Below are positions 8,022-15,096 of a DNA stretch of 64,000 nucleotides, in pieces (positions within the stretch are counted from its first letter, which is position 1; each line of letters opens with the position of its first letter). Origin of the DNA: Granulosicoccus sp. (GTDB taxonomy: Bacteria; Pseudomonadota; Gammaproteobacteria; Granulosicoccales; Granulosicoccaceae); the NCBI GenBank assembly GCA_020627685.1, contig JAHDGK010000007.1:27612-91611 (forward strand), given 5' to 3'. The position numbers were made by a program, and so were the translations under genes. The notes below the pieces were generated by a model, which was given only the letters and a program-made list of their open reading frames with translations, ran no database searches and was not told the origin of the DNA.

Positions 8022-11000
8022 ATGAATGCACCGTTGGCTAGCGCCCCATTAGATCTCCCGCCAAAACAACTTCGGGAGATTCCCTACAACTACACCTCGT
8101 TCTCGGATCGTGAGATTACTCTGCGATATTTGGGCGAAGAAGGGTGGCGGCTGATTCAAAGTCTGCGCGACCAGCGTAGAACCGGGCAATCAGCGCGAAT
8201 GTTGTTTGAAGTGTTGGGCGATATCTGGGTTATTGATCGCAACCCCTTCATTCAGGAAGACATGTTGACCAACCGTCGTCGGCGCGATGCGCTGGTCGGT
8301 GCGCTTGGTCACCGCGTCAGTCAAATTGTCGACCGCCAGTCCGGTGATGAGCGAGTCGATACTCTGATAAAGCTCGCCAATTCAGCTATTCAGGATTTCC
8401 AGACACGCCTAACCGACATGCAGGCGTATCGAAAAACCGTTCGCCAGGCAATGCGAGGCGTCACGCACCCGGACAACATTCGATTCGATGGTCTTTCCCG
8501 TGTGTCTCACGTAACAGATGCAACGGACTGGAGGGTAGAACTGCCGTTCGTCGTTATCACGCCAGATACCGAGCGCGAGTTGCCGGCTATCGTAAAAAAG
8601 TGCATTGAGTTGTCATTGACTATTGTGCCAAGAGGAGGCGGTACCGGGTATACGGGCGGCGCTATTCCCTTGCATGCGCGAACAGCGGTTATCAATATCG
8701 AAAAGCTCGATGCCAGAGCGCCCATTGAGCACACGACACTTGCGGCTACTGATGAGTACCCTGAGCGACAGGTGCATACAATCAAGGTTGAATCTGGCGT
8801 CGTCACTCGGAGGGTGTCTGAAGATGCATCTGCAAAAGGATTAGCGTTTGCGGTGGATCCCACTTCTCAAGATGCCTCTACCATTGGCGGCAATATAGCC
8901 ATGAACGCCGGTGGCAAAAAAGCGGTCATTTGGGGAACAACCCTGGACAACTTATTGTCTTGGCGCATGGTAGATCCTAATGGCCACTGGCTAGATGTAG
9001 AAAGGATTGACCACAACTTAGGAAAAATTCACTTACAGGAGTCGGTGCGTTTCAAAGTGACTCGTAGCGATGCTGAGAGTGGCGCCTTAATAGGAGAGCC
9101 CTGGGTTATCGATGCAGCCGGCTCGAGTTTGCGCCAGCAAGGTCTTGGCAAAGACGTTACGGATAAATTTTTAGGTGGTTTACCCGGTGTGCAGAAGGAA
9201 GGCTGCGATGGGTTGATCACGTCGGCAGTATTCATCCTGCATCGCATGCCGGACAATATCCGAACGGTTTGTATGGAGTTCTACGGAAAGGATCTACGGC
9301 AGGCCGTGCTGGGTATCACGGAGGTTAAAGACTACATAGACAACACTGACGGTATTGAGCTGGCTGGCCTGGAACATCTCGATGATCGGTATATCAAGGC
9401 TGTTAAGTACAGTGCCAAGGCTGCAAGAGGCGAGCTACCCAAGATGTTGTTGCTGGCAGATATTGTTAGTGATGATGCAGACTTGGTTGGGCGTGTTGCA
9501 TCCGGCGTGGTTCGTCTGGTTAATAAGCGCGGAGCGGAAGGGTTTATTGCTGTCAGCGCTGAAGCTCGAAGTCAGTTTTGGGCTGCACGCTCCCGCACAG
9601 CTGCGATAGCCGCGCACACTAATGCGTTTAAGATCAATGAAGATGTTGTTATACCGCTTTCGCGATTGGCTGATTACAGTGAAGGCATCGAGCGAATAAA
9701 CATTGAGCATGCACTGAGTAACAAACTCATGATGCTTGAGCATGTACGCCAGTTGCTGCGAAGCGGGGAAGGAGAATCCCTGGCTGCGGTGGGGTTGGAT
9801 GACAGTGATGAAACGAAAACCATTGTCCGCGATAGTCTTGATGCAGCGCTTGAGGTGCTCGACGGAACTTACCAGCGCTGGAGTGAACTCTATGAGCAAT
9901 TGCAAGCCTCCGATGAGGCTTTTCTAGAAGCCTTAAGAGAATCGAGAGAGCCAGTTGAGGCTGACACTTGTGTGCTTGCTCTGCTAAGGCGAGATGATGT
10001 CATCTCGTATCGAGCGTCTGTTGAAAAACCCTTAAAAGAGCGCTTTTCCGGTAACCGATATGTTCGGCTTTGTAAGCGAATAGACGAGATCCATGCGAAA
10101 TGGCGCCCGCAGCGTTTGTTTACTGCACTTCATATGCATGCAGGCGACGGGAACATACATACCAACATTCCTGTTAACTCCAATGACTACACGATGCTGC
10201 AGCAAGCTGAAGGTATTGTTGAACGAGTTATGGAGTTAGCCACGTTGCTCGGTGGGGTAATTTCGGGTGAACACGGCATTGGTCTGACGAAAATAAAGTA
10301 CATGGACCAGTCAGTCATTAATGCCTTTGCTGACTATAAATCCGAAGTTGACCCTAATGGTCACTTCAATAAAGGCAAATTGATGCCAGGCTCAAGTCTT
10401 GAGAATGCTTACACGCCGTCGCTTAGATTAGTACAGCAAGAAGCGCTGATTCTTGAGCAAAGCGAACTAGGATCACTGAACGATAGCATTAAAGATTGCT
10501 TGCGCTGCGGCAAGTGCAAACCTGTGTGTGCGACTCACTCGCCGGGTGCAAATTTACTGTACTCCCCGCGCAACAAAGTGCTTGGCACAGGGCTGATTAT
10601 CGAAGCCTTCTTATATGAAGAGCAGACAAGACGAGGTCTCTCTATTCGTCATTTTGATGAGATGAACGATATTGCGGACCACTGTACGGTTTGCCACAAG
10701 TGTTTGACGCCGTGTCCGGTAGATATTGATTTTGGCGAAGTCTCTATCACCATGCGAAAAATCCTGGGCGATCGCGGTCAAAAGAATTTCAATCTGGGCA
10801 CGAAAATGTCCATGGCTTTTTTGAATGTAAAAGATCCTGCCACGATTAAAGTGATGCGAAAAGGCATGATCGAATGGGGATTCAAGGCTCAGAGAACCGC
10901 TAATGAAGTGGTAGGGCGGCTGCCTAAAGTAGTGAATGCCAAAAGTGAGCCTCGAAACACCAATGGCGGAACTCCTCCGATTGAGCAGGTCGTGCATTTT

Positions 11001-11915
11001 GTAAACCGAAAGCTACCGGGCAAGTCAATGTTGCCTGCCAAAACCACTCGAGCTTTGTTAGGAATAGAAAATAAGGAATACGTACCTATCATCCGTGATC
11101 CGGAAAAAGCGACCGAAGACAGCGAGGCTGTGTTTTATTTTCCTGGGTGTGGTTCGGAGCGCTTGTTCAGTCAGGTTGGTTTAGCCACCTTGGCCATGCT
11201 TTACGATACGGGAAGTAAAACGGTACTCCCGCCGGGTTACCTGTGTTGTGGTTATCCTCAAACGTCCAGCGGCGATGTGGATAAAGGTAAGCAAATAACC
11301 ACCGAGAACAGGGTCTTGTTTCATCGTGTTGCGAACACGCTTAATTATCTAGATATAAAGACCGTTATTGTGTCCTGCGGTACGTGCATGGATCAATTGC
11401 TCAAATACGAGTTTGGACAAATATTTCCAGATTGCAGGTTGCTGGACATACATGAATATTTGATGGAAAAAAACTACTCGCTGGACGGGGTGAGCGGTGA
11501 ACACTACGTTTACCACGACCCATGTCATAGCCCCATGAAAACCTATCAGCCTATGCAGGTTACCGAAGCATTATTAGGTAAAAGCGTGACTGAGTCGGAC
11601 AGGTGCTGCGGTGAATCTGGAACCTTCGCAGTATCCCGACCTGATATCGCAACACAGGTACGTCAGCGAAAAGCTCAGGAGTTGCAAGCCAACCTTGCCG
11701 CTAACAATGTGGCCTCCGGAGACTTATCGCATAGTGTGAAAATGATGACGTCTTGTCCGGCTTGTGTGCAGGGGCTTAGCCGATATAAAGACGAGACGGG
11801 AATGGATACGGATTACATCGTTGTCGAGCTGGCCAAAGGGCTCTTTGGTGAAAACTGGGCTAACGAATTCGTAGATCGTGCGAACGATGGTGGTGTGGAA
11901 CAAGTACTCTTATAA
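8022..11915 (+). CDS. Large FAD-linked/(4Fe-4S) oxidoreductase (GlcD-like FAD domain + ferredoxin + GlpC/CCG domains; DUF3683-type N-terminus)
   Basis: REIPYNYTSFSDREI N-terminus, PRGGGTGYTGG FAD motif, HAGDGNIH, SGEHGIG, CLRCGKCKPVC, CTVCHKCLTPC and CCG motifs. Confidence 0.85.
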   Translation: MNAPLASAPLDLPPKQLREIPYNYTSFSDREITLRYLGEEGWRLIQSLRDQRRTGQSARMLFEVLGDIWVIDRNPFIQEDMLTNRRRRDALVGALGHRVSQIVDRQSGDERVDTLIKLANSAIQDFQTRLTDMQAYRKTVRQAMRGVTHPDNIRFDGLSRVSHVTDATDWRVELPFVVITPDTERELPAIVKKCIELSLTIVPRGGGTGYTGGAIPLHARTAVINIEKLDARAPIEHTTLAATDEYPERQVHTIKVESGVVTRRVSEDASAKGLAFAVDPTSQDASTIGGNIAMNAGGKKAVIWGTTLDNLLSWRMVDPNGHWLDVERIDHNLGKIHLQESVRFKVTRSDAESGALIGEPWVIDAAGSSLRQQGLGKDVTDKFLGGLPGVQKEGCDGLITSAVFILHRMPDNIRTVCMEFYGKDLRQAVLGITEVKDYIDNTDGIELAGLEHLDDRYIKAVKYSAKAARGELPKMLLLADIVSDDADLVGRVASGVVRLVNKRGAEGFIAVSAEARSQFWAARSRTAAIAAHTNAFKINEDVVIPLSRLADYSEGIERINIEHALSNKLMMLEHVRQLLRSGEGESLAAVGLDDSDETKTIVRDSLDAALEVLDGTYQRWSELYEQLQASDEAFLEALRESREPVEADTCVLALLRRDDVISYRASVEKPLKERFSGNRYVRLCKRIDEIHAKWRPQRLFTALHMHAGDGNIHTNIPVNSNDYTMLQQAEGIVERVMELATLLGGVISGEHGIGLTKIKYMDQSVINAFADYKSEVDPNGHFNKGKLMPGSSLENAYTPSLRLVQQEALILEQSELGSLNDSIKDCLRCGKCKPVCATHSPGANLLYSPRNKVLGTGLIIEAFLYEEQTRRGLSIRHFDEMNDIADHCTVCHKCLTPCPVDIDFGEVSITMRKILGDRGQKNFNLGTKMSMAFLNVKDPATIKVMRKGMIEWGFKAQRTANEVVGRLPKVVNAKSEPRNTNGGTPPIEQVVHFVNRKLPGKSMLPAKTTRALLGIENKEYVPIIRDPEKATEDSEAVFYFPGCGSERLFSQVGLATLAMLYDTGSKTVLPPGYLCCGYPQTSSGDVDKGKQITTENRVLFHRVANTLNYLDIKTVIVSCGTCMDQLLKYEFGQIFPDCRLLDIHEYLMEKNYSLDGVSGEHYVYHDPCHSPMKTYQPMQVTEALLGKSVTESDRCCGESGTFAVSRPDIATQVRQRKAQELQANLAANNVASGDLSHSVKMMTSCPACVQGLSRYKDETGMDTDYIVVELAKGLFGENWANEFVDRANDGGVEQVLL

Positions 11916-11970: not shown

Positions 11971-13281
11971 CTACGGTCTGTCGAATATCGAGCCAGACGT
12001 TGGGCTGAGTAGTTTGTGGTACAGCTTGCCAGCCGACACATCAGTCATGCTAGACAGAAAATCGGCAATTGCGCGATAGCCGCATTCTTCGTATTGTTCG
12101 TAAACGGCTACCGGTAAAAGCCGTTTAGGGTTGGCAGCGAAAATTTCAAAGAGTCGTACGACCACGCGTTGCCCTTTGTATTGCAGCATTTGCAATTCAG
12201 GGCGAAATATCACGTCGCGCATAACAAAGTCTTTTATCAGAAGTAAGATTTTATAGGCCATGCTTTCCATGCGAACCTGTAGGCGAAGCAGATCTGCTTC
12301 AAAGCCGTCTTGCTCATCAATATAAATACTGCGTATGAGGTAACCGACCAGACGGCTGATAGCGTGTTTACGGTCTTTCGCAGAAGAGCTGAACAATAAC
12401 TGATTGAACTCATCCATCCGGTCATTAACGGGGTTTGAATCAAAAGATTCAAGCACGGCAACGACTTTTTCCTGCCAAGCTTCGCGATCGACTAAACCTA
12501 ACGCTAATGCATCCTCCAGATCATGTACACCATAGGCAATGTCATCAGCCAGCTCCATGATGCTGGTGTCAAAGCACTTGTATTTTGTTTTCGCATGGCC
12601 GGGCTTTGGGCGTTCAAGCGATAAAAACCGGCTTCGGTCTTCTTCTGAGAAAGGTTCGAGTAGCCAATCGAGCACATCGCGTTCTGCATCGTATATGCAC
12701 TTGGGTGGAGACCAGTGATCGATGTTCAGAGAGTTTTCGTTTTCAACGGGAATGTACTCACAGACTTCAGAATAAAATGCCGGGTACTTGATTGTGCCAA
12801 GCATCGTTCTTCGCGTCAGATCGAGTCCGCAGGAGGGGGAGTATTCGCCTAGTCTTGCCAGTATCCTTAGGGTTTGGCCGTTTGCTTCGAATCCGCCGTG
12901 GTCGCGCATCATGGTATTCATAGCTACTTCTCCACCATGCCCGAATGGCGAGTGGCCGATATCGTGGGCCAGGCAAATGGCTTCTATCAAGCTGAAGGAG
13001 GGAATGAGATCAACATGCGCCTCATTGCTTTTCTGATCACGCAGCCATTCGCAAATGCCAGAACCCACTTGCGCAACTTCCAAGGAGTGGGTCAGTCGTG
13101 TTCTGTAAAAATCGGACTCCCCCAGTCCCAGGACTTGCGTTTTGGACTGTAGGCTTCGAAAGGATGCACTGTGAATTATTCGTGCACGATCTCGTTGATA
13201 CTGACTATCCTGGCCGGTGCTGTTGAAGCCGCGGCTCGGATTGCGTTCTAACTCCGATCGACGCTCTAGCCATACACTCAA
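11971..13281 (-). CDS. dgt: dGTP triphosphohydrolase family HD protein
   Basis: RDRARIIHSASFRSLQSKTQV, RTRLTHSLEVAQ, HDIGH.PFGHGGE, FEANGQT and ADDIAYGVHDLED motifs; AAGGAG RBS before the TTG start. Confidence 0.9.
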   Translation of the reverse strand: MSVWLERRSELERNPSRGFNSTGQDSQYQRDRARIIHSASFRSLQSKTQVLGLGESDFYRTRLTHSLEVAQVGSGICEWLRDQKSNEAHVDLIPSFSLIEAICLAHDIGHSPFGHGGEVAMNTMMRDHGGFEANGQTLRILARLGEYSPSCGLDLTRRTMLGTIKYPAFYSEVCEYIPVENENSLNIDHWSPPKCIYDAERDVLDWLLEPFSEEDRSRFLSLERPKPGHAKTKYKCFDTSIMELADDIAYGVHDLEDALALGLVDREAWQEKVVAVLESFDSNPVNDRMDEFNQLLFSSSAKDRKHAISRLVGYLIRSIYIDEQDGFEADLLRLQVRMESMAYKILLLIKDFVMRDVIFRPELQMLQYKGQRVVVRLFEIFAANPKRLLPVAVYEQYEECGYRAIADFLSSMTDVSAGKLYHKLLSPTSGSIFDRP

Positions 13282-13628
13282 CTTATCTTCTCCTTACGGT
13301 AATCATTCACTGAATGCTACACCTGGTTGTTGGGCTTTACCTGTAACCCATCTATCAATAAAGGGGCCAGATAACGGCTAAGTTTAGGGTATTGTGCGCG
13401 TCAGGGTGAGAATTGATATTTGTTAGTTTCTTCACCCACTATTATAGATCCGGTTATTACCTTAAGCCGTACGAAACCTTAGATGATCAGCGAGGTCTAC
13501 AGGTTCGAATGCCCGCAAATCGGGCAGTCGAGAAAAAATTTTGCGTGTTGCAAAATGTATCAATTTATAAGGCTGTGTTCACGTAGCATTCCACAGTTAA
13601 AGACGTTTACGAAACTGCAAAAAATATA

Positions 13629-14567
13629 ATGGCTAGAAAACCAAGGATTCACTTCTCAGGCGCTGTGTACCACGTCATTCTCAAAGGCTTGGAAAATCAG
13701 GCCATATTTAAGGGCGTGTCAGATCGTCGTGCATGGGAAGTTCTGGTAGGAGAGGGTTCTGCGCGTTTTGACCACACCATAATTGCTTACTGTTGGGCTA
13801 AAGACCACGTTCAGATGGCTGTTAAGGTGGGCGATGTACCATTGTCCAAAGTCATGCAGAATTTGTCTTTTCGTTACACCAGATACTTCAACAAGCAACA
13901 TAAAAGAAGCGGGCCGCTGTTCCATGGCCGTTACAAGGCAATTCTTATTGATGAAGATCAATACCTAAACGATCTTGTTCGATTCATTCATAACAACCCT
14001 GTTAGATCAAAAGTATCCAAAGACGCCTCGAGTGCGAAGTGGACCAGCCACGCGGCGTATATGGGAACTGAAGAGCACTCTTGGCTAAGTACAAGTCCCG
14101 TACTCAGCACGTTCGGAAAAACATCTAAAACAGCAAAGAACGCTTTTGCCCGCTTTGTCGATGCCGGTAAGGATGAAACCGAGCGCACCGATTTGGTGCG
14201 AGGTTCCGAAGGTGGTCGCGTATTGGGCGACAAGAAGTTTGTAAAGAAGGCGTTGAAGCCTGTAAAAGTTGCTCCTGCTCCAATGACAGAAAACCAATTG
14301 GTCAAGCGTGTGTGCCGCGAAGAAGGAATAAAAGAGCTTGCGCTAAAAAGCGAAAGTCGGGCACGAAGAGAGAGTCAGATCAGGCAGTCCATTACGTATC
14401 TCGCAATGGAACTCAATATTGCAACTCTGACGGCAATGGCCGATCGATTTAATCGCGATCTAACGACGATGAGTCGGAACCAACGCTACTTCAGGGACAA
14501 GCTTGCTGAAGATCGTGATTTACAGAAACACGTGAAGCAGTTGCGCAAAAAAGTTCTTGCCGGCTGA
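13629..14567 (+). CDS. Y1 (IS200/RAYT-like) transposase-fold protein with C-terminal DnaA-C-like HTH; predicted catalytically inactive
   Basis: MARKPRI...YHVILKG...LSFRYTRYFN...LFHGRYKAILID...NPVR is colinear with Y1_Tnp proteins, but the motifs read HVQ and RFIHNNP. The C-terminal RVCREEG...YLAMEL...FNRDLTTM region resembles DnaA domain IV. Confidence 0.8.
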   Translation: MARKPRIHFSGAVYHVILKGLENQAIFKGVSDRRAWEVLVGEGSARFDHTIIAYCWAKDHVQMAVKVGDVPLSKVMQNLSFRYTRYFNKQHKRSGPLFHGRYKAILIDEDQYLNDLVRFIHNNPVRSKVSKDASSAKWTSHAAYMGTEEHSWLSTSPVLSTFGKTSKTAKNAFARFVDAGKDETERTDLVRGSEGGRVLGDKKFVKKALKPVKVAPAPMTENQLVKRVCREEGIKELALKSESRARRESQIRQSITYLAMELNIATLTAMADRFNRDLTTMSRNQRYFRDKLAEDRDLQKHVKQLRKKVLAG

Positions 14568-15096
14568 ATCGACTCCGGTGTCATCGGTACAAAACGAATG
14601 GCTAGATGTCGTTGATGAAAACGACAAGGTAGTGGGGCGGGCGACCCGTCAAGAGGTTCATAAGGACAACCTCATACATCGGTCCGCGCATATCCTTTTA
14701 CTCAATTCAAAAGATCAAATTTTCGTACAACTCCGGAGTCTTTCAAAAGACAATAGCGCGGGCCTCTGGGACACCAGTGCAGCTGGTCATGTTGATAGCG
14801 GCGAGAGTTACCTGCAATGCGCCGTCAGGGAGTTAGCGGAAGAGCTAGGAGTTGTGTTGTCTGCAGACGATTTAATCCCCGTCGGTCGATTGCCACCGGA
14901 AAGTAGCAACGGCTTTGAATTTACCCAGATCTACACGGCACGCTCTGATCAGCCCTTGACTCTTCAGGCCGAAGAAATCGACGATGGTCGCTGGGTGAGC
15001 GCTGACCAACTCGATCGTTGGATTTCAGAAGACAGGGCGGCTTTTACTGACACCTTCCTCACCATTTGGGCAAATGTGAAGCCCGGTACACAGTAA
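14557..15096 (+). CDS. Nudix hydrolase (IPP-isomerase/YfcD-like)
   Basis: LDVVDENDKVVG, HRSAHILL, WDTSAAGHV and Nudix box GESYLQCAVRELAEELG; overlaps the upstream gene by 11 bp. Confidence 0.85.
   Translation: MPAESTPVSSVQNEWLDVVDENDKVVGRATRQEVHKDNLIHRSAHILLLNSKDQIFVQLRSLSKDNSAGLWDTSAAGHVDSGESYLQCAVRELAEELGVVLSADDLIPVGRLPPESSNGFEFTQIYTARSDQPLTLQAEEIDDGRWVSADQLDRWISEDRAAFTDTFLTIWANVKPGTQ

What the first reader, a model, noticed from the sequence alone, without database searches (positions are those of the whole stretch)
13629..14567. Intact but catalytically dead Y1/RAYT transposase with a DnaA-like HTH: candidate domesticated DNA-binding protein
Seen: the ORF follows the Y1 transposase fold motif by motif, without frameshifts or internal stops. 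The metal-binding HxH reads H60-V-Q62 (CAC GTT CAG, 13806-13814). The catalytic helix, normally R-Y-I-H-x-N-P, reads R-F119-I-H-N-N-P (TTC at 13983-13985). Neighbouring conserved positions also changed (usual LMxNHVH is WAKDHVQ; usual RGN is KGL). A DnaA-domain-IV-like HTH is retained at the C-terminus. No IS ends, tnpB or repeated REP palindromes are visible: the intergenic hairpins in the window are unrelated to each other. Established: HUH Y1 enzymes need the Tyr nucleophile and the HUH metal site to nick ssDNA; Q is tolerated in a few HUH Reps, but Tyr-to-Phe is the standard inactivating change. Inference: an exapted nuclease-dead hairpin/ssDNA- or dsDNA-binding factor, conceptually parallel to nuclease-dead TnpB regulators. 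I know of no description of such a family.
Basis: partly seen in the sequence, partly recalled or inferred. Interest (0 to 1): 0.72.

Follow-up and report, generated by a model that had tools for sequence, protein, structure and literature searches.

The report
Dead transposase kept as DNA-binding protein
This gene descends from a DNA-cutting transposase but has lost its cutting residues and its transposon ends, while marine Granulosicoccus bacteria have kept it intact at one fixed chromosomal site, so it most likely now only binds DNA for the host.

Summary
ORF 13629-14567 (+) encodes 312 aa with a Y1/HUH transposase fold (closest structure TnpA_REP, 4ER8) plus a DnaA-domain-IV-type HTH. H60-V-Q62 replaces HuH, and F119 aligns with the catalytic Tyr115 of E. 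coli RayT.

The parent architecture is already described (TnpA_Y1 subclass 2.1.2, also called TIRYT). The inactive form is not.

- **Active relatives.** Relatives at 38-47% identity almost all keep a nine-residue active-site set (R19 N21 M57 N59 H60 H62 H96 Y119 N123). They sit between inverted repeats that begin GGGGTCAGGCTTG.
- **This gene's group.** None of the 120 closest homologues (56-100% identity) keeps the full set. Position 119 changes at least 13 times (Y/F/W/H). The repeats are gone.
- **Inheritance.** The gene sits next to a divergently transcribed dGTPase gene in every orthologous locus examined, down to 41% identity.
- **Selection.** dN/dS is 0.03-0.12 overall and at most 0.04 in the dead Y1 domain.
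- **HTH.** The recognition helix is almost invariant, whereas it is highly variable in active relatives.

Most likely this is a domesticated, non-cutting, sequence-specific DNA-binding protein. Its DNA target and its cellular role were not determined.

The parts
13629..14567 (+). Intact 312-aa ORF: a catalytically degenerate Y1/HUH fold, a linker and a DnaA-domain-IV-like HTH
   Evidence: dN/dS against L001 is 0.04.
13659..13997 (+). Y1 (HUH) transposase-like domain, residues 11-123
   Evidence: Pfam Y1_Tnp. Foldseek hits 4er8, IS608 and ISDra2 TnpA. hhalign to RayT. Domain dN/dS is 0.0-0.04 in close pairs.
13806..13814 (+). H60-V61-Q62 in place of the HuH metal-binding motif
   Evidence: Position 62 is Q in 102 and H in 14 of 120 close homologues. 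Position 60 is H in 96 of 120.
13983..13985 (+). F119 (TTC) at the position of the catalytic tyrosine (Y115 of E. coli RayT)
   Evidence: Y 91, F 20, W 8, H 1 among 120 homologues, with at least 13 changes on the tree.
13995..13997 (+). N123, the retained equivalent of metal ligand N119 of RayT. It is variable in the group.
   Evidence: N in 86 of 120; at least 20 changes on the tree.
14298..14474 (+). DnaA-domain-IV-like HTH domain (Pfam Bac_DnaA_C, residues 224-282)
14445..14495 (+). Recognition-helix segment R273-R289 (RFNRDLTTMSRNQRYFR), almost invariant across the degenerate group
   Evidence: At 40-50% overall identity this segment is 87% identical in the group against 32% in canonical relatives.
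13282..13628 (.). Intergenic region shared with the divergent dGTPase gene. It presumably holds both promoters. No transposon-end relic was found.
   Evidence: Conserved GTTTAGGGYATTGTG lies about 100 nt from the dGTPase start in W, L001-L003 and L005. No tRNA or Rfam match.
11971..13281 (-). Divergently transcribed dGTP triphosphohydrolase gene. It is the one neighbour kept in every orthologous locus.
   Evidence: NCBIfam 'anti-phage dGTPase' 541.6 bits (cutoff 383) and PADLOC dGTPase 468.9 bits.
14557..15096 (+). Nudix hydrolase gene (YfcD/IDI-like, below the family cutoffs). Its ORF begins at or just after the stop of the Y1-HTH gene, so it is probably co-transcribed.
   Evidence: Present downstream in most orthologous loci, lost in L007 and L008, and separated in L010.

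Best explanation
The gene is a domesticated, non-catalytic descendant of a TIR-flanked Y1 (HUH) transposase-like gene that carries a C-terminal DnaA-domain-IV-type HTH (TnpA_Y1 subclass 2.1.2, also called TIRYT).

In the lineage leading to Granulosicoccus and its relatives, three things happened. The element lost both terminal inverted repeats. It lost the residues needed for metal binding and nucleophilic attack. It became fixed at one chromosomal site, divergent from a dGTPase gene and usually upstream of a Nudix gene.

The protein now binds DNA without cutting it. The HTH, whose recognition helix has become frozen, reads a fixed double-stranded motif. The strongly conserved but inactive Y1 fold supplies a second binding surface, for ssDNA, a hairpin or a protein partner. 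The most likely output is regulatory: control of its own operon and the divergent dGTPase promoter, or of a wider set of sites.

**Shown:** the fold, the loss of the active site, the loss of the TIRs, the synteny, the purifying selection and the frozen helix.

**Inferred:** DNA binding itself, the target sequence and the regulatory output.
For: **Fold and residue mapping.**

**Active-site loss.**
- Of 132 full-length representatives, 112 keep HuH+Y+N. The ones closest to the query do not.
- Nine positions conserved at 89-100% in 113 canonical representatives are lost in the degenerate set, while the structural core is kept.
- None of the 120 closest homologues keeps all nine. N21 and H96 are absent in all 120.
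- Catalytic positions change at about the median rate for the protein: position 119 at least 13 times, position 60 at least 12, position 123 at least 20.

**TIR loss.** The GGGTCAGGC core lies within 150 nt upstream in 50 of 53 canonical loci and in 2 of 33 degenerate loci. Fisher p = 1e-17, not corrected for phylogeny.

**Synteny.** The dGTPase gene lies immediately upstream and divergent in the window, L001-L008, L010 and L014, and in all 17 metagenome loci of the group that have an upstream flank.

**Selection.** For close pairs, dN/dS is 0.03-0.12 overall and 0.0-0.04 for the Y1 domain. Canonical relatives give 0.12-0.36.

**Recognition helix.** It is invariant in the group. At 40-50% overall identity it is 87% identical in the group against 32% in canonical relatives.

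**No mobility.** There is a single copy and there are no repeat families in the window.
Against: - No direct evidence of DNA binding exists, and no binding site was identified.
- Motif searches in the upstream regions gave only elements that could equally be -10 promoter boxes.
- HuQ motifs are functional in some HUH replication proteins (my own knowledge). About 75% of orthologues still carry Tyr, so residual nicking in HVQ-Y-N members cannot be excluded.
- The trees are neighbour-joining only.
- Clustering of degenerate sequences could be inflated by long-branch effects.
- The dGTPase adjacency sits inside a larger conserved block. It could reflect inheritance alone rather than a functional link.
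- Evidence for expression is one 151-nt RNA-seq contig.
Confidence: 0.72

Rival explanations
1. It is still an active HUH nuclease or transposase. It would use an altered metal site (HuQ) and another nucleophile, such as a different Tyr, Ser or water.
For: HuQ works in some HUH replication proteins (my own knowledge). N123 and H60 are kept in the window protein. Tyr is retained in 91 of 120 orthologues. The Y1 domain is under very strong constraint.
Against: - F119 sits at the nucleophile position. Y-to-F is the standard inactivating change, as in the ISDra2 Y132F structure 2XO6.
- No Tyr is specific to the group. Y14, Y102 and Y112 are equally conserved in intact relatives.
- H60, Q62 and N123 vary freely among orthologues, to R, S, F, Q, L, A or V.
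- N21 and H96 are lost in all 120.
- The cognate TIR substrate is gone.
Confidence: 0.06
2. It is a decaying remnant, a recent pseudogene-in-waiting, or an assembly or sequencing error.
For: Catalytic motifs are broken. One published survey treated such sequences as pseudogenes.
Against: - The ORF is intact and of constant length in more than 120 orthologues down to 41% identity.
- dN/dS is 0.03-0.12, similar to housekeeping neighbours.
- The same substitutions occur in independent assemblies and sequencing runs.
Confidence: 0.02
3. It is a non-catalytic factor linked to replication or ssDNA rather than a transcription factor. It would bind DnaA-box-like sites or fork or hairpin DNA through the two domains, modulating initiation or fork processes.
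For: - The HTH is a DnaA-domain-IV homologue.
- It keeps the equivalents of R399, D433 and T435 (my own mapping of the alignment onto E. coli DnaA numbering).
- Y1 enzymes act on lagging-strand ssDNA, and a DnaA-like domain was proposed to target forks (PMC6006769).
- A frozen recognition helix fits a universal host target.
Against: The equivalents of P423, H434 and H439 are changed to T, L and R, so a canonical DnaA box is unlikely to be the target. I did not search for DnaA boxes or an origin of replication. The whole Y1-HTH family shares the R at the H439 position.
Confidence: 0.15
4. It is a dedicated regulator or sensor for the adjacent anti-phage-type dGTPase. The dead Y1 domain would sense phage ssDNA or replication intermediates, and the HTH would control dGTPase expression.
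For: - The dGTPase adjacency is the only one kept in all orthologous loci while other neighbours change.
- The dGTPase scores above the cutoffs of the NCBIfam and PADLOC defence models.
- The two genes share a divergent promoter region.
Against: - The pair sits in a housekeeping block (rplM-rpsI ... DMGDH, rfbCD), not in a defence island.
- Other degenerate lineages sit next to recQ, TraG or TPMT instead.
- The protein matches no PADLOC model.
- The NCBIfam name covers a broad subfamily.
Confidence: 0.12

Closest known systems
TnpA_Y1 subclass 2.1.2 (Quentin et al. 2018, PMC6006769), equal to TIRYT/'TIRtron' genes (Di Nocera et al. 2013, PMC3733652) and RAYT group 1 (Bertels et al. 2017, PMC5581495)
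   Same: Same two-domain architecture of a Y1 core plus a Bac_DnaA_C-like HTH. It is about 310 aa long, 38-47% identical, with E-values of 1e-60 to 1e-87, and shares the N-terminal MARKPRIH and the core motifs GxLFxGRY and HxNP.
   Different: Described members all keep HuH and Tyr and are flanked by TIRs with GGGGWSAS. Here the active-site set is lost, the TIRs are absent, the locus is fixed and syntenic, and the HTH recognition helix is frozen. The function of the parent family itself has never been tested.
E. coli TnpA_REP / RayT (PDB 4ER8)
   Same: It is the best structural match for the N-terminal domain. It shares the class-2 'Y---NP' helix context and has low copy number like a domesticated gene.
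   Different: RayT is an active Mn2+-dependent nuclease with H59/H61/Y115/N119/H123. It is flanked by REPs and has no HTH domain. The query scores 37.5 bits against the NCBIfam cutoff of 80.
IS200/IS605 TnpA (IS608, ISDra2)
   Same: Same HUH/Y1 fold.
   Different: These are obligate dimers of about 150 aa with a Y---Q signature, subterminal hairpins, often tnpB, and many copies per genome. None of this applies here.
DnaA domain IV (PDB 1J1V, 3PVP)
   Same: The C-terminal 90 residues have the same fold (rmsd about 1.6 A) and the R-D-x-T-T signature.
   Different: There is no AAA+ domain or domains I-II (TIGR00362 scores 35 bits against a cutoff of 343.9). Three of the six DnaA-box contact residues are replaced (my own mapping on the alignment).
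TldR, the nuclease-dead TnpB-derived transcription factors (PMC10705468, listed)
   Same: Same evolutionary logic. An IS200/IS605-superfamily transposon protein loses its catalytic residues and its transposon context and is retained by the host as a DNA-binding factor.
   Different: TldR derives from a different protein (RuvC-type TnpB, not HUH TnpA), is RNA-guided, and its regulatory role has been shown experimentally. None of that is shown or expected here.

Membership tests
HUH / Y1 transposase superfamily (Pfam Y1_Tnp; TnpA_Y1 class 2) | Y1 fold: four-stranded sheet with helices, and an alpha-D helix carrying the nucleophile | tested here: met
   Pfam 40.4 bits above the cutoff of 23. Foldseek hits 4er8, 2a6o and 2xo6 at probability 1.00.
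HUH / Y1 transposase superfamily (Pfam Y1_Tnp; TnpA_Y1 class 2) | HuH metal-binding motif | tested here: not met
   H60-V-Q62. Q62 aligns with H61 of RayT.
HUH / Y1 transposase superfamily (Pfam Y1_Tnp; TnpA_Y1 class 2) | Catalytic Tyr in the class-2 'Y---NP' signature | tested here: not met
   The sequence reads F119-I-H-N-N123-P124. NP is kept but Tyr is replaced.
HUH / Y1 transposase superfamily (Pfam Y1_Tnp; TnpA_Y1 class 2) | Site-specific ssDNA cleavage and joining activity | not testable with these tools
   This needs a nicking or covalent-adduct assay.
TnpA_Y1 subclass 2.1.2 / TIRYT | Y1 core followed by a C-terminal Bac_DnaA_C/HTH domain, about 300-325 aa | tested here: met
TnpA_Y1 subclass 2.1.2 / TIRYT | Gene flanked by terminal inverted repeats (GGGGWSAS type) | tested here: not met
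   No flanking inverted repeat above shuffled controls in the window or in any orthologous locus. The TIR core is present upstream in 50 of 53 canonical loci and 2 of 33 degenerate loci. A weight-matrix (PWM) scan for a TIR relic was not significant.
TnpA_Y1 subclass 2.1.2 / TIRYT | HuH and catalytic Tyr conserved (stated for all described TIRYTs) | tested here: not met
REP-associated tyrosine transposase (RAYT; NCBIfam NF047646) | Score at or above the curated cutoff | tested here: not met
   37.5 bits against a cutoff of 80.
REP-associated tyrosine transposase (RAYT; NCBIfam NF047646) | Flanking REP/REPIN palindromes that recur in the genome | tested here: not met
   No repeat families in the 64 kb window and no flanking palindromes. 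The whole genome was not available.
IS200/IS605 insertion sequence | TnpA model cutoff, subterminal hairpins, tnpB partner, multiple copies | tested here: not met
   NF033573 scores 14.7 bits against a cutoff of 55. There is a single copy in the window and no ends.
DnaA | AAA+ domain III plus domain IV | tested here: not met
   Only domain IV matches. TIGR00362 scores 35 bits against a cutoff of 343.9.
DnaA | DnaA-box base-contact residues (R399, P423, D433, H434, T435, H439 of E. coli DnaA) | tested here: inconclusive
   The alignment gives R, T, D, L, T, R, so three of six are kept. The residue list is from my own knowledge of the 1J1V structure.
Domesticated nuclease-dead transposon proteins (a concept, e.g. 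TldR) | Loss of catalytic residues and of transposon ends, with vertical inheritance under purifying selection | tested here: met
Domesticated nuclease-dead transposon proteins (a concept, e.g. TldR) | Demonstrated host function, such as DNA binding or regulation | not testable with these tools
   This needs DAP-seq or ChIP-seq, a knockout and RNA-seq.

The most novel reading that the evidence does not exclude
The inactive HUH domain has been repurposed as a sensor of ssDNA or hairpins. On detecting phage or aberrant replication intermediates, the protein would switch the divergent anti-phage-type dGTPase (and the Nudix operon) on or off through its frozen DnaA-like HTH. That would be a transposase-derived regulatory arm for a nucleotide-depletion defence.
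Probability: 0.1. Interest if true: 0.85.

Novelty: new variant of a known kind. Interest (0 to 1): 0.62.

Why it matters
HUH/Y1 proteins of the RAYT type have been called domesticated mainly because of their copy number and inheritance. All described members still look like active nucleases, and none has a known host function.

This lineage gives a cleaner case. The same protein family exists in two states. One has an intact active site, its own inverted repeats and a fast-evolving DNA-recognition helix. The other has no active site, no repeats, a fixed locus, stronger purifying selection and a frozen helix.

That contrast does three things:
- It shows that the Y1 fold and the DnaA-like HTH are worth keeping without catalysis.
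- It offers a natural separation-of-function variant for working out what TIRYT-type proteins bind.
- It shows that surveys which discard HuH/Y-less sequences as pseudogenes miss a conserved gene family.

If the link to the neighbouring dGTPase is functional, it would also connect a transposase relic to control of the dNTP pool or to phage defence.

Tried and rejected
1. **TIR relic as operator.** By eye, GCGTCAGGGTGAGAATTG in the window's intergenic region resembled the canonical TIR. A weight-matrix scan of 26 orthologous intergenic regions gave only one hit at p = 0.01, so I rejected it as chance. The single near-match to the TIR core in the window (47443) lies inside an ORF and is at chance frequency.
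2. **Shared upstream motif.** Only GTTTAGGGYATTGTG (close species) and A(C/T)AATGCAAGT stand out. The second occurs as two copies about 88 bp apart in a sister subgroup and is not found in the window's intergenic region at one mismatch or fewer. Both look like -10 boxes, so neither can be called an operator.
3. **tRNA or ncRNA in the intergenic region.** A GGTTCGAAT-like stretch prompted this check. ARAGORN and Rfam found nothing.
4. **Promoter and terminator scan.** Uninformative.
5. **Substitute tyrosine.** Conservation shows that no Tyr is specific to the group.
6. **Expression.** Only one 151-nt RNA-seq contig lies inside the gene, and DNA contamination is possible.
7. **Defence and phage libraries.** No PADLOC hit, and only a marginal PHROG hit in the HTH.
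8. **Foreign origin.** GC content (0.45-0.49) is not clearly different from the flanks.
9. **Literature.** No paper in the searchable library describes an inactive Y1-DnaA_C lineage.
Full report
**1.

The ORF at 13629-14567 (+) is intact and encodes 312 aa.

Pfam finds Y1_Tnp at residues 11-123 and Bac_DnaA_C at residues 224-282, both above their gathering scores. The NCBIfam models for RAYT, IS200 TnpA and DnaA all fall far below their cutoffs.

An AlphaFold2 model built on 58 homologues has mean pLDDT 89.5. Foldseek's best hit for the N-terminal part is TnpA_REP (4er8_A), followed by IS608 and ISDra2 TnpA. The C-terminal part matches the DnaA DNA-binding domains 3pvp and 1j1v at about 1.6 A rmsd.

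A profile alignment to E. coli RayT maps H60 to H59, Q62 to H61, F119 to the catalytic Y115, and N123 to the metal ligand N119. The residue roles come from PMC3479197.

**2. The parent family is known; the inactive form is not**

Y1 proteins with a C-terminal DnaA-like HTH are TnpA_Y1 subclass 2.1.2 of Quentin et al. 2018. They are probably the same as the TIRYT/'TIRtron' genes of Di Nocera et al. 2013. In that paper's alignment of TIRYTs, HuH and Tyr are conserved in all, and the TIRs of many TIRYT genes share a GGGGWSAS motif. They also correspond to RAYT group 1 of Bertels et al. 2017.

Quentin et al. kept only sequences with HuH and Y for their tree and treated the rest as possible pseudogenes. 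I found no paper that describes an inactive lineage.

**3. Active-site loss affects the whole group**

The exhaustive representative search found 23,192 hits at E up to 1e-3 and 552 at E up to 1e-30. Of 132 full-length representatives, 112 carry HuH+Y+N. The representatives closest to the query instead read QIN, RIS, EAS, QAS, QIH, QAN or EVS at the HuH position.

I compared 113 canonical with 39 degenerate representatives. Nine positions are 89-100% conserved in the former and lost in the latter: R19, N21, M57, N59, H60, H62, H96 and N123, plus Y119 in part. A127 behaves the same way.

The structural core is kept in both sets: Y14, H15, G20, F27, D32, G95, F98, R101, Y112, R118, H121, P124, W138, S140, H141, Y144 and W152. 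No tyrosine is gained in the degenerate set.

Among the 120 closest homologues (56-100% identity):
- None has the full nine-residue set.
- N21 and H96 are absent from all 120.
- The window protein keeps only 2 of the 9.

On a neighbour-joining tree of these homologues, Fitch parsimony needs at least 13 changes at position 119 (Y 90, F 20, W 8, H 1). It needs at least 12 at position 60, 7 at position 62 and 20 at position 123. That is about the median rate for the protein. G95, F98, R101, Y102, H121 and P124 never change.

Phe is therefore not the defining feature. The window, L001 and L002 have F119, while their congeners L003-L005 have Y119.

In a tree built without the catalytic columns, most degenerate sequences fall together. 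A few are scattered elsewhere, which suggests further independent losses. This tree is neighbour-joining only, so the grouping is provisional.

**4. The transposon ends are gone**

A metagenome scan returned 80 loci. The 60 loci at 38-47% identity are nearly all canonical: 58 of 60 have HuH-Y-N and 56 of 60 have all nine residues.

These canonical genes are framed by inverted repeats. The left repeat reads GGGGTCAGGCTTG followed by two short tandem sub-repeats. It lies 42-54 nt upstream of the start codon in most loci (up to about 100 nt in three) and was found in 52 of 54 loci. An inverted copy lies downstream in 46 of 56.

The core GGGTCAGGC, allowing one mismatch, is found within 150 nt upstream in 50 of 53 canonical loci but in only 2 of 33 degenerate loci. 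Fisher p = 1e-17, not corrected for shared ancestry.

No degenerate locus, the window included, has a flanking inverted repeat above shuffled controls.

**5. Fixed locus, vertical inheritance and strong purifying selection**

The divergent dGTPase gene lies immediately upstream in all of these:
- The window and five genome loci, L001-L005.
- Three long contigs whose proteins read HVQ-F, HVQ-W and SAH-Y-E.
- Two distant orthologues at 47% and 41% identity, P0121 and P0128.
- All 17 metagenome loci of the group that have an upstream flank.

The wider block is largely conserved: OsmC, rplM, rpsI, an FAD-oxidase/Fe-S protein, then the dGTPase, this gene, Nudix, a dimethylglycine-dehydrogenase-like gene (DMGDH) and rfbCD. 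Every adjacency except the one with the dGTPase is broken at least once.

For pairs where dS is not saturated:

| Group | dN/dS, whole gene | dN/dS, Y1 domain |
|---|---|---|
| Degenerate group | 0.03-0.12 | 0.0-0.04 |
| Canonical pairs | 0.12-0.36 | 0.05-0.26 |

Values for the degenerate group are comparable to those of housekeeping neighbours.

The window holds one copy and no repeat families. GC content is unremarkable.

Other degenerate lineages lie in other chromosomal contexts: next to recQ, next to a TraG_N gene, and next to TPMT and RIO-kinase genes. All of these also lack TIRs.

**6. The HTH changed its evolutionary regime**

In canonical genes the recognition helix differs from lineage to lineage, in step with the sub-repeat type of their own TIRs. 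This is descriptive and is confounded by phylogeny.

In the degenerate group the segment R273-R289 (RFNRDLTTMSRNQRYFR) is almost invariant. At 40-50% overall identity it is 87% identical within the group and 32% identical among canonical proteins.

Mapped on the DnaA alignment, the equivalents of R399, D433 and T435 are kept. P423, H434 and H439 become T, L and R. A canonical DnaA box is therefore unlikely to be the target. This mapping uses my own knowledge of the 1J1V contacts.

**7. Interpretation**

The simplest reading is a TIRYT-type element that was immobilised and exapted. Catalysis and ends were lost, while the fold and the HTH were retained and tightened.

A frozen recognition helix fits a fixed host target, possibly several sites, rather than an element's own co-evolving ends. 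The very low dN/dS of the inactive Y1 domain shows that it still does something. Binding ssDNA, a hairpin or a partner protein are the obvious candidates.

I commit to 'a non-cutting, sequence-specific DNA-binding protein with a regulatory role' at about 0.7. I give about 0.3 to the more specific idea that it controls its own operon and the divergent dGTPase promoter.

The rivals are:
- Residual nuclease activity.
- Decay or sequencing error.
- A role at the replication origin or fork.
- A dedicated regulator or sensor for the dGTPase.

They are scored in the Rival explanations section. Decay is effectively excluded.

**8. What remains open**

- No binding site was identified.
- Expression evidence is minimal.
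- HVQ-Y-N orthologues might keep some activity.
- The phylogeny is neighbour-joining only.
- Whole genomes were not available to check for paralogues or dispersed TIRs.
- The dGTPase scores above the curated 'anti-phage dGTPase' cutoffs. It nevertheless sits in a housekeeping neighbourhood, so that label should be read with caution.

**9. Verdict**

The finding is a new variant of a known kind: a catalytically dead, domesticated branch of the Y1-DnaA_C (TIRYT) family. I found no description of it in the literature I could search.

Noticed in passing
window 11971-13281 (-): The divergent neighbour scores above the curated cutoffs of NCBIfam 'anti-phage deoxyguanosine triphosphatase' (541.6 bits against 383; 528.8 against 400) and matches the PADLOC dGTPase model (468.9 bits). 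It nevertheless lies in a conserved housekeeping block beside rplM-rpsI rather than in a defence island.
   Followed up: partly
L038-L097 (canonical relatives), 42-54 nt upstream of the start in most loci (up to about 100 nt in three) and 11-95 nt downstream of the stop: The TIRs of catalytically intact Y1-DnaA_C genes have a two-part layout. A conserved outer GGGGTCAGGCTTG is followed by two tandem 7-8 nt sub-repeats, for example TTGCAATGTTGCAAT, TTGAGTTATTGAGTTA or TTCCAAGTTGACAAGT. The sub-repeat type varies together with the HTH recognition helix. This suggests the Y1 domain reads the outer part and the HTH reads the sub-repeats.
   Followed up: partly
proteins P0143, P0187, P0138: Some family members carry one canonical Y1 domain followed by long arrays of DnaA_C-like HTH domains. 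P0143 has 12 in 1680 aa, P0187 has 7 in 1052 aa, and P0138 has 3 in 529 aa.
   Followed up: no
window 13380-13397; same relative position in L001, L002, L003, L005: A conserved non-coding element GTTTAGGGYATTGTG lies about 100 nt from the dGTPase start codon. It could be the dGTPase promoter or a binding site. It is only marginally above shuffled controls when all 11 loci are used.
   Followed up: partly
L025, L026, L029, L037 (both boxes at one mismatch or fewer); L007, L027, L028 (looser matches): A sister subgroup has two same-strand copies of A(C/T)AATGCAAGT about 88 bp apart, at roughly -50 and -140 from the start codon. Within the 4-17 kb loci they occur almost only there. They could be tandem -10 boxes or an operator pair. 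They are not found upstream of the window's gene at one mismatch or fewer.
   Followed up: partly
L045 (HFH-H-H), L043 (QLN-Y-A), L011, L013: Further degenerate members lie outside the dGTPase-linked group and in different contexts (TPMT/RIO kinase, TraG_N, recQ). L045 still has a TIR-like ACGTCAGGCTTGAATAATTGAGC upstream. Inactivation may therefore have happened more than once and at different times.
   Followed up: partly
L005 (JBLHWG010000006.1): This contig is labelled as a Halioglobus MAG. Its gene order and 75-91% protein identities match the Granulosicoccus loci, so it may be mis-binned or mislabelled.
   Followed up: no
window 14557-15096 (+): The downstream Nudix gene resembles YfcD and isopentenyl-diphosphate-isomerase-type Nudix proteins but falls below all curated cutoffs. 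Its start overlaps or abuts the stop codon of the Y1-HTH gene, which suggests translational coupling in several genomes.
   Followed up: partly
window 8022-11915 (+): A 1297-aa fusion protein (DUF3683, FAD-linked oxidase, 4Fe-4S and CCG domains, DUF3400) is conserved beside the dGTPase gene in most loci. It looks ordinary but is uncharacterised.
   Followed up: no
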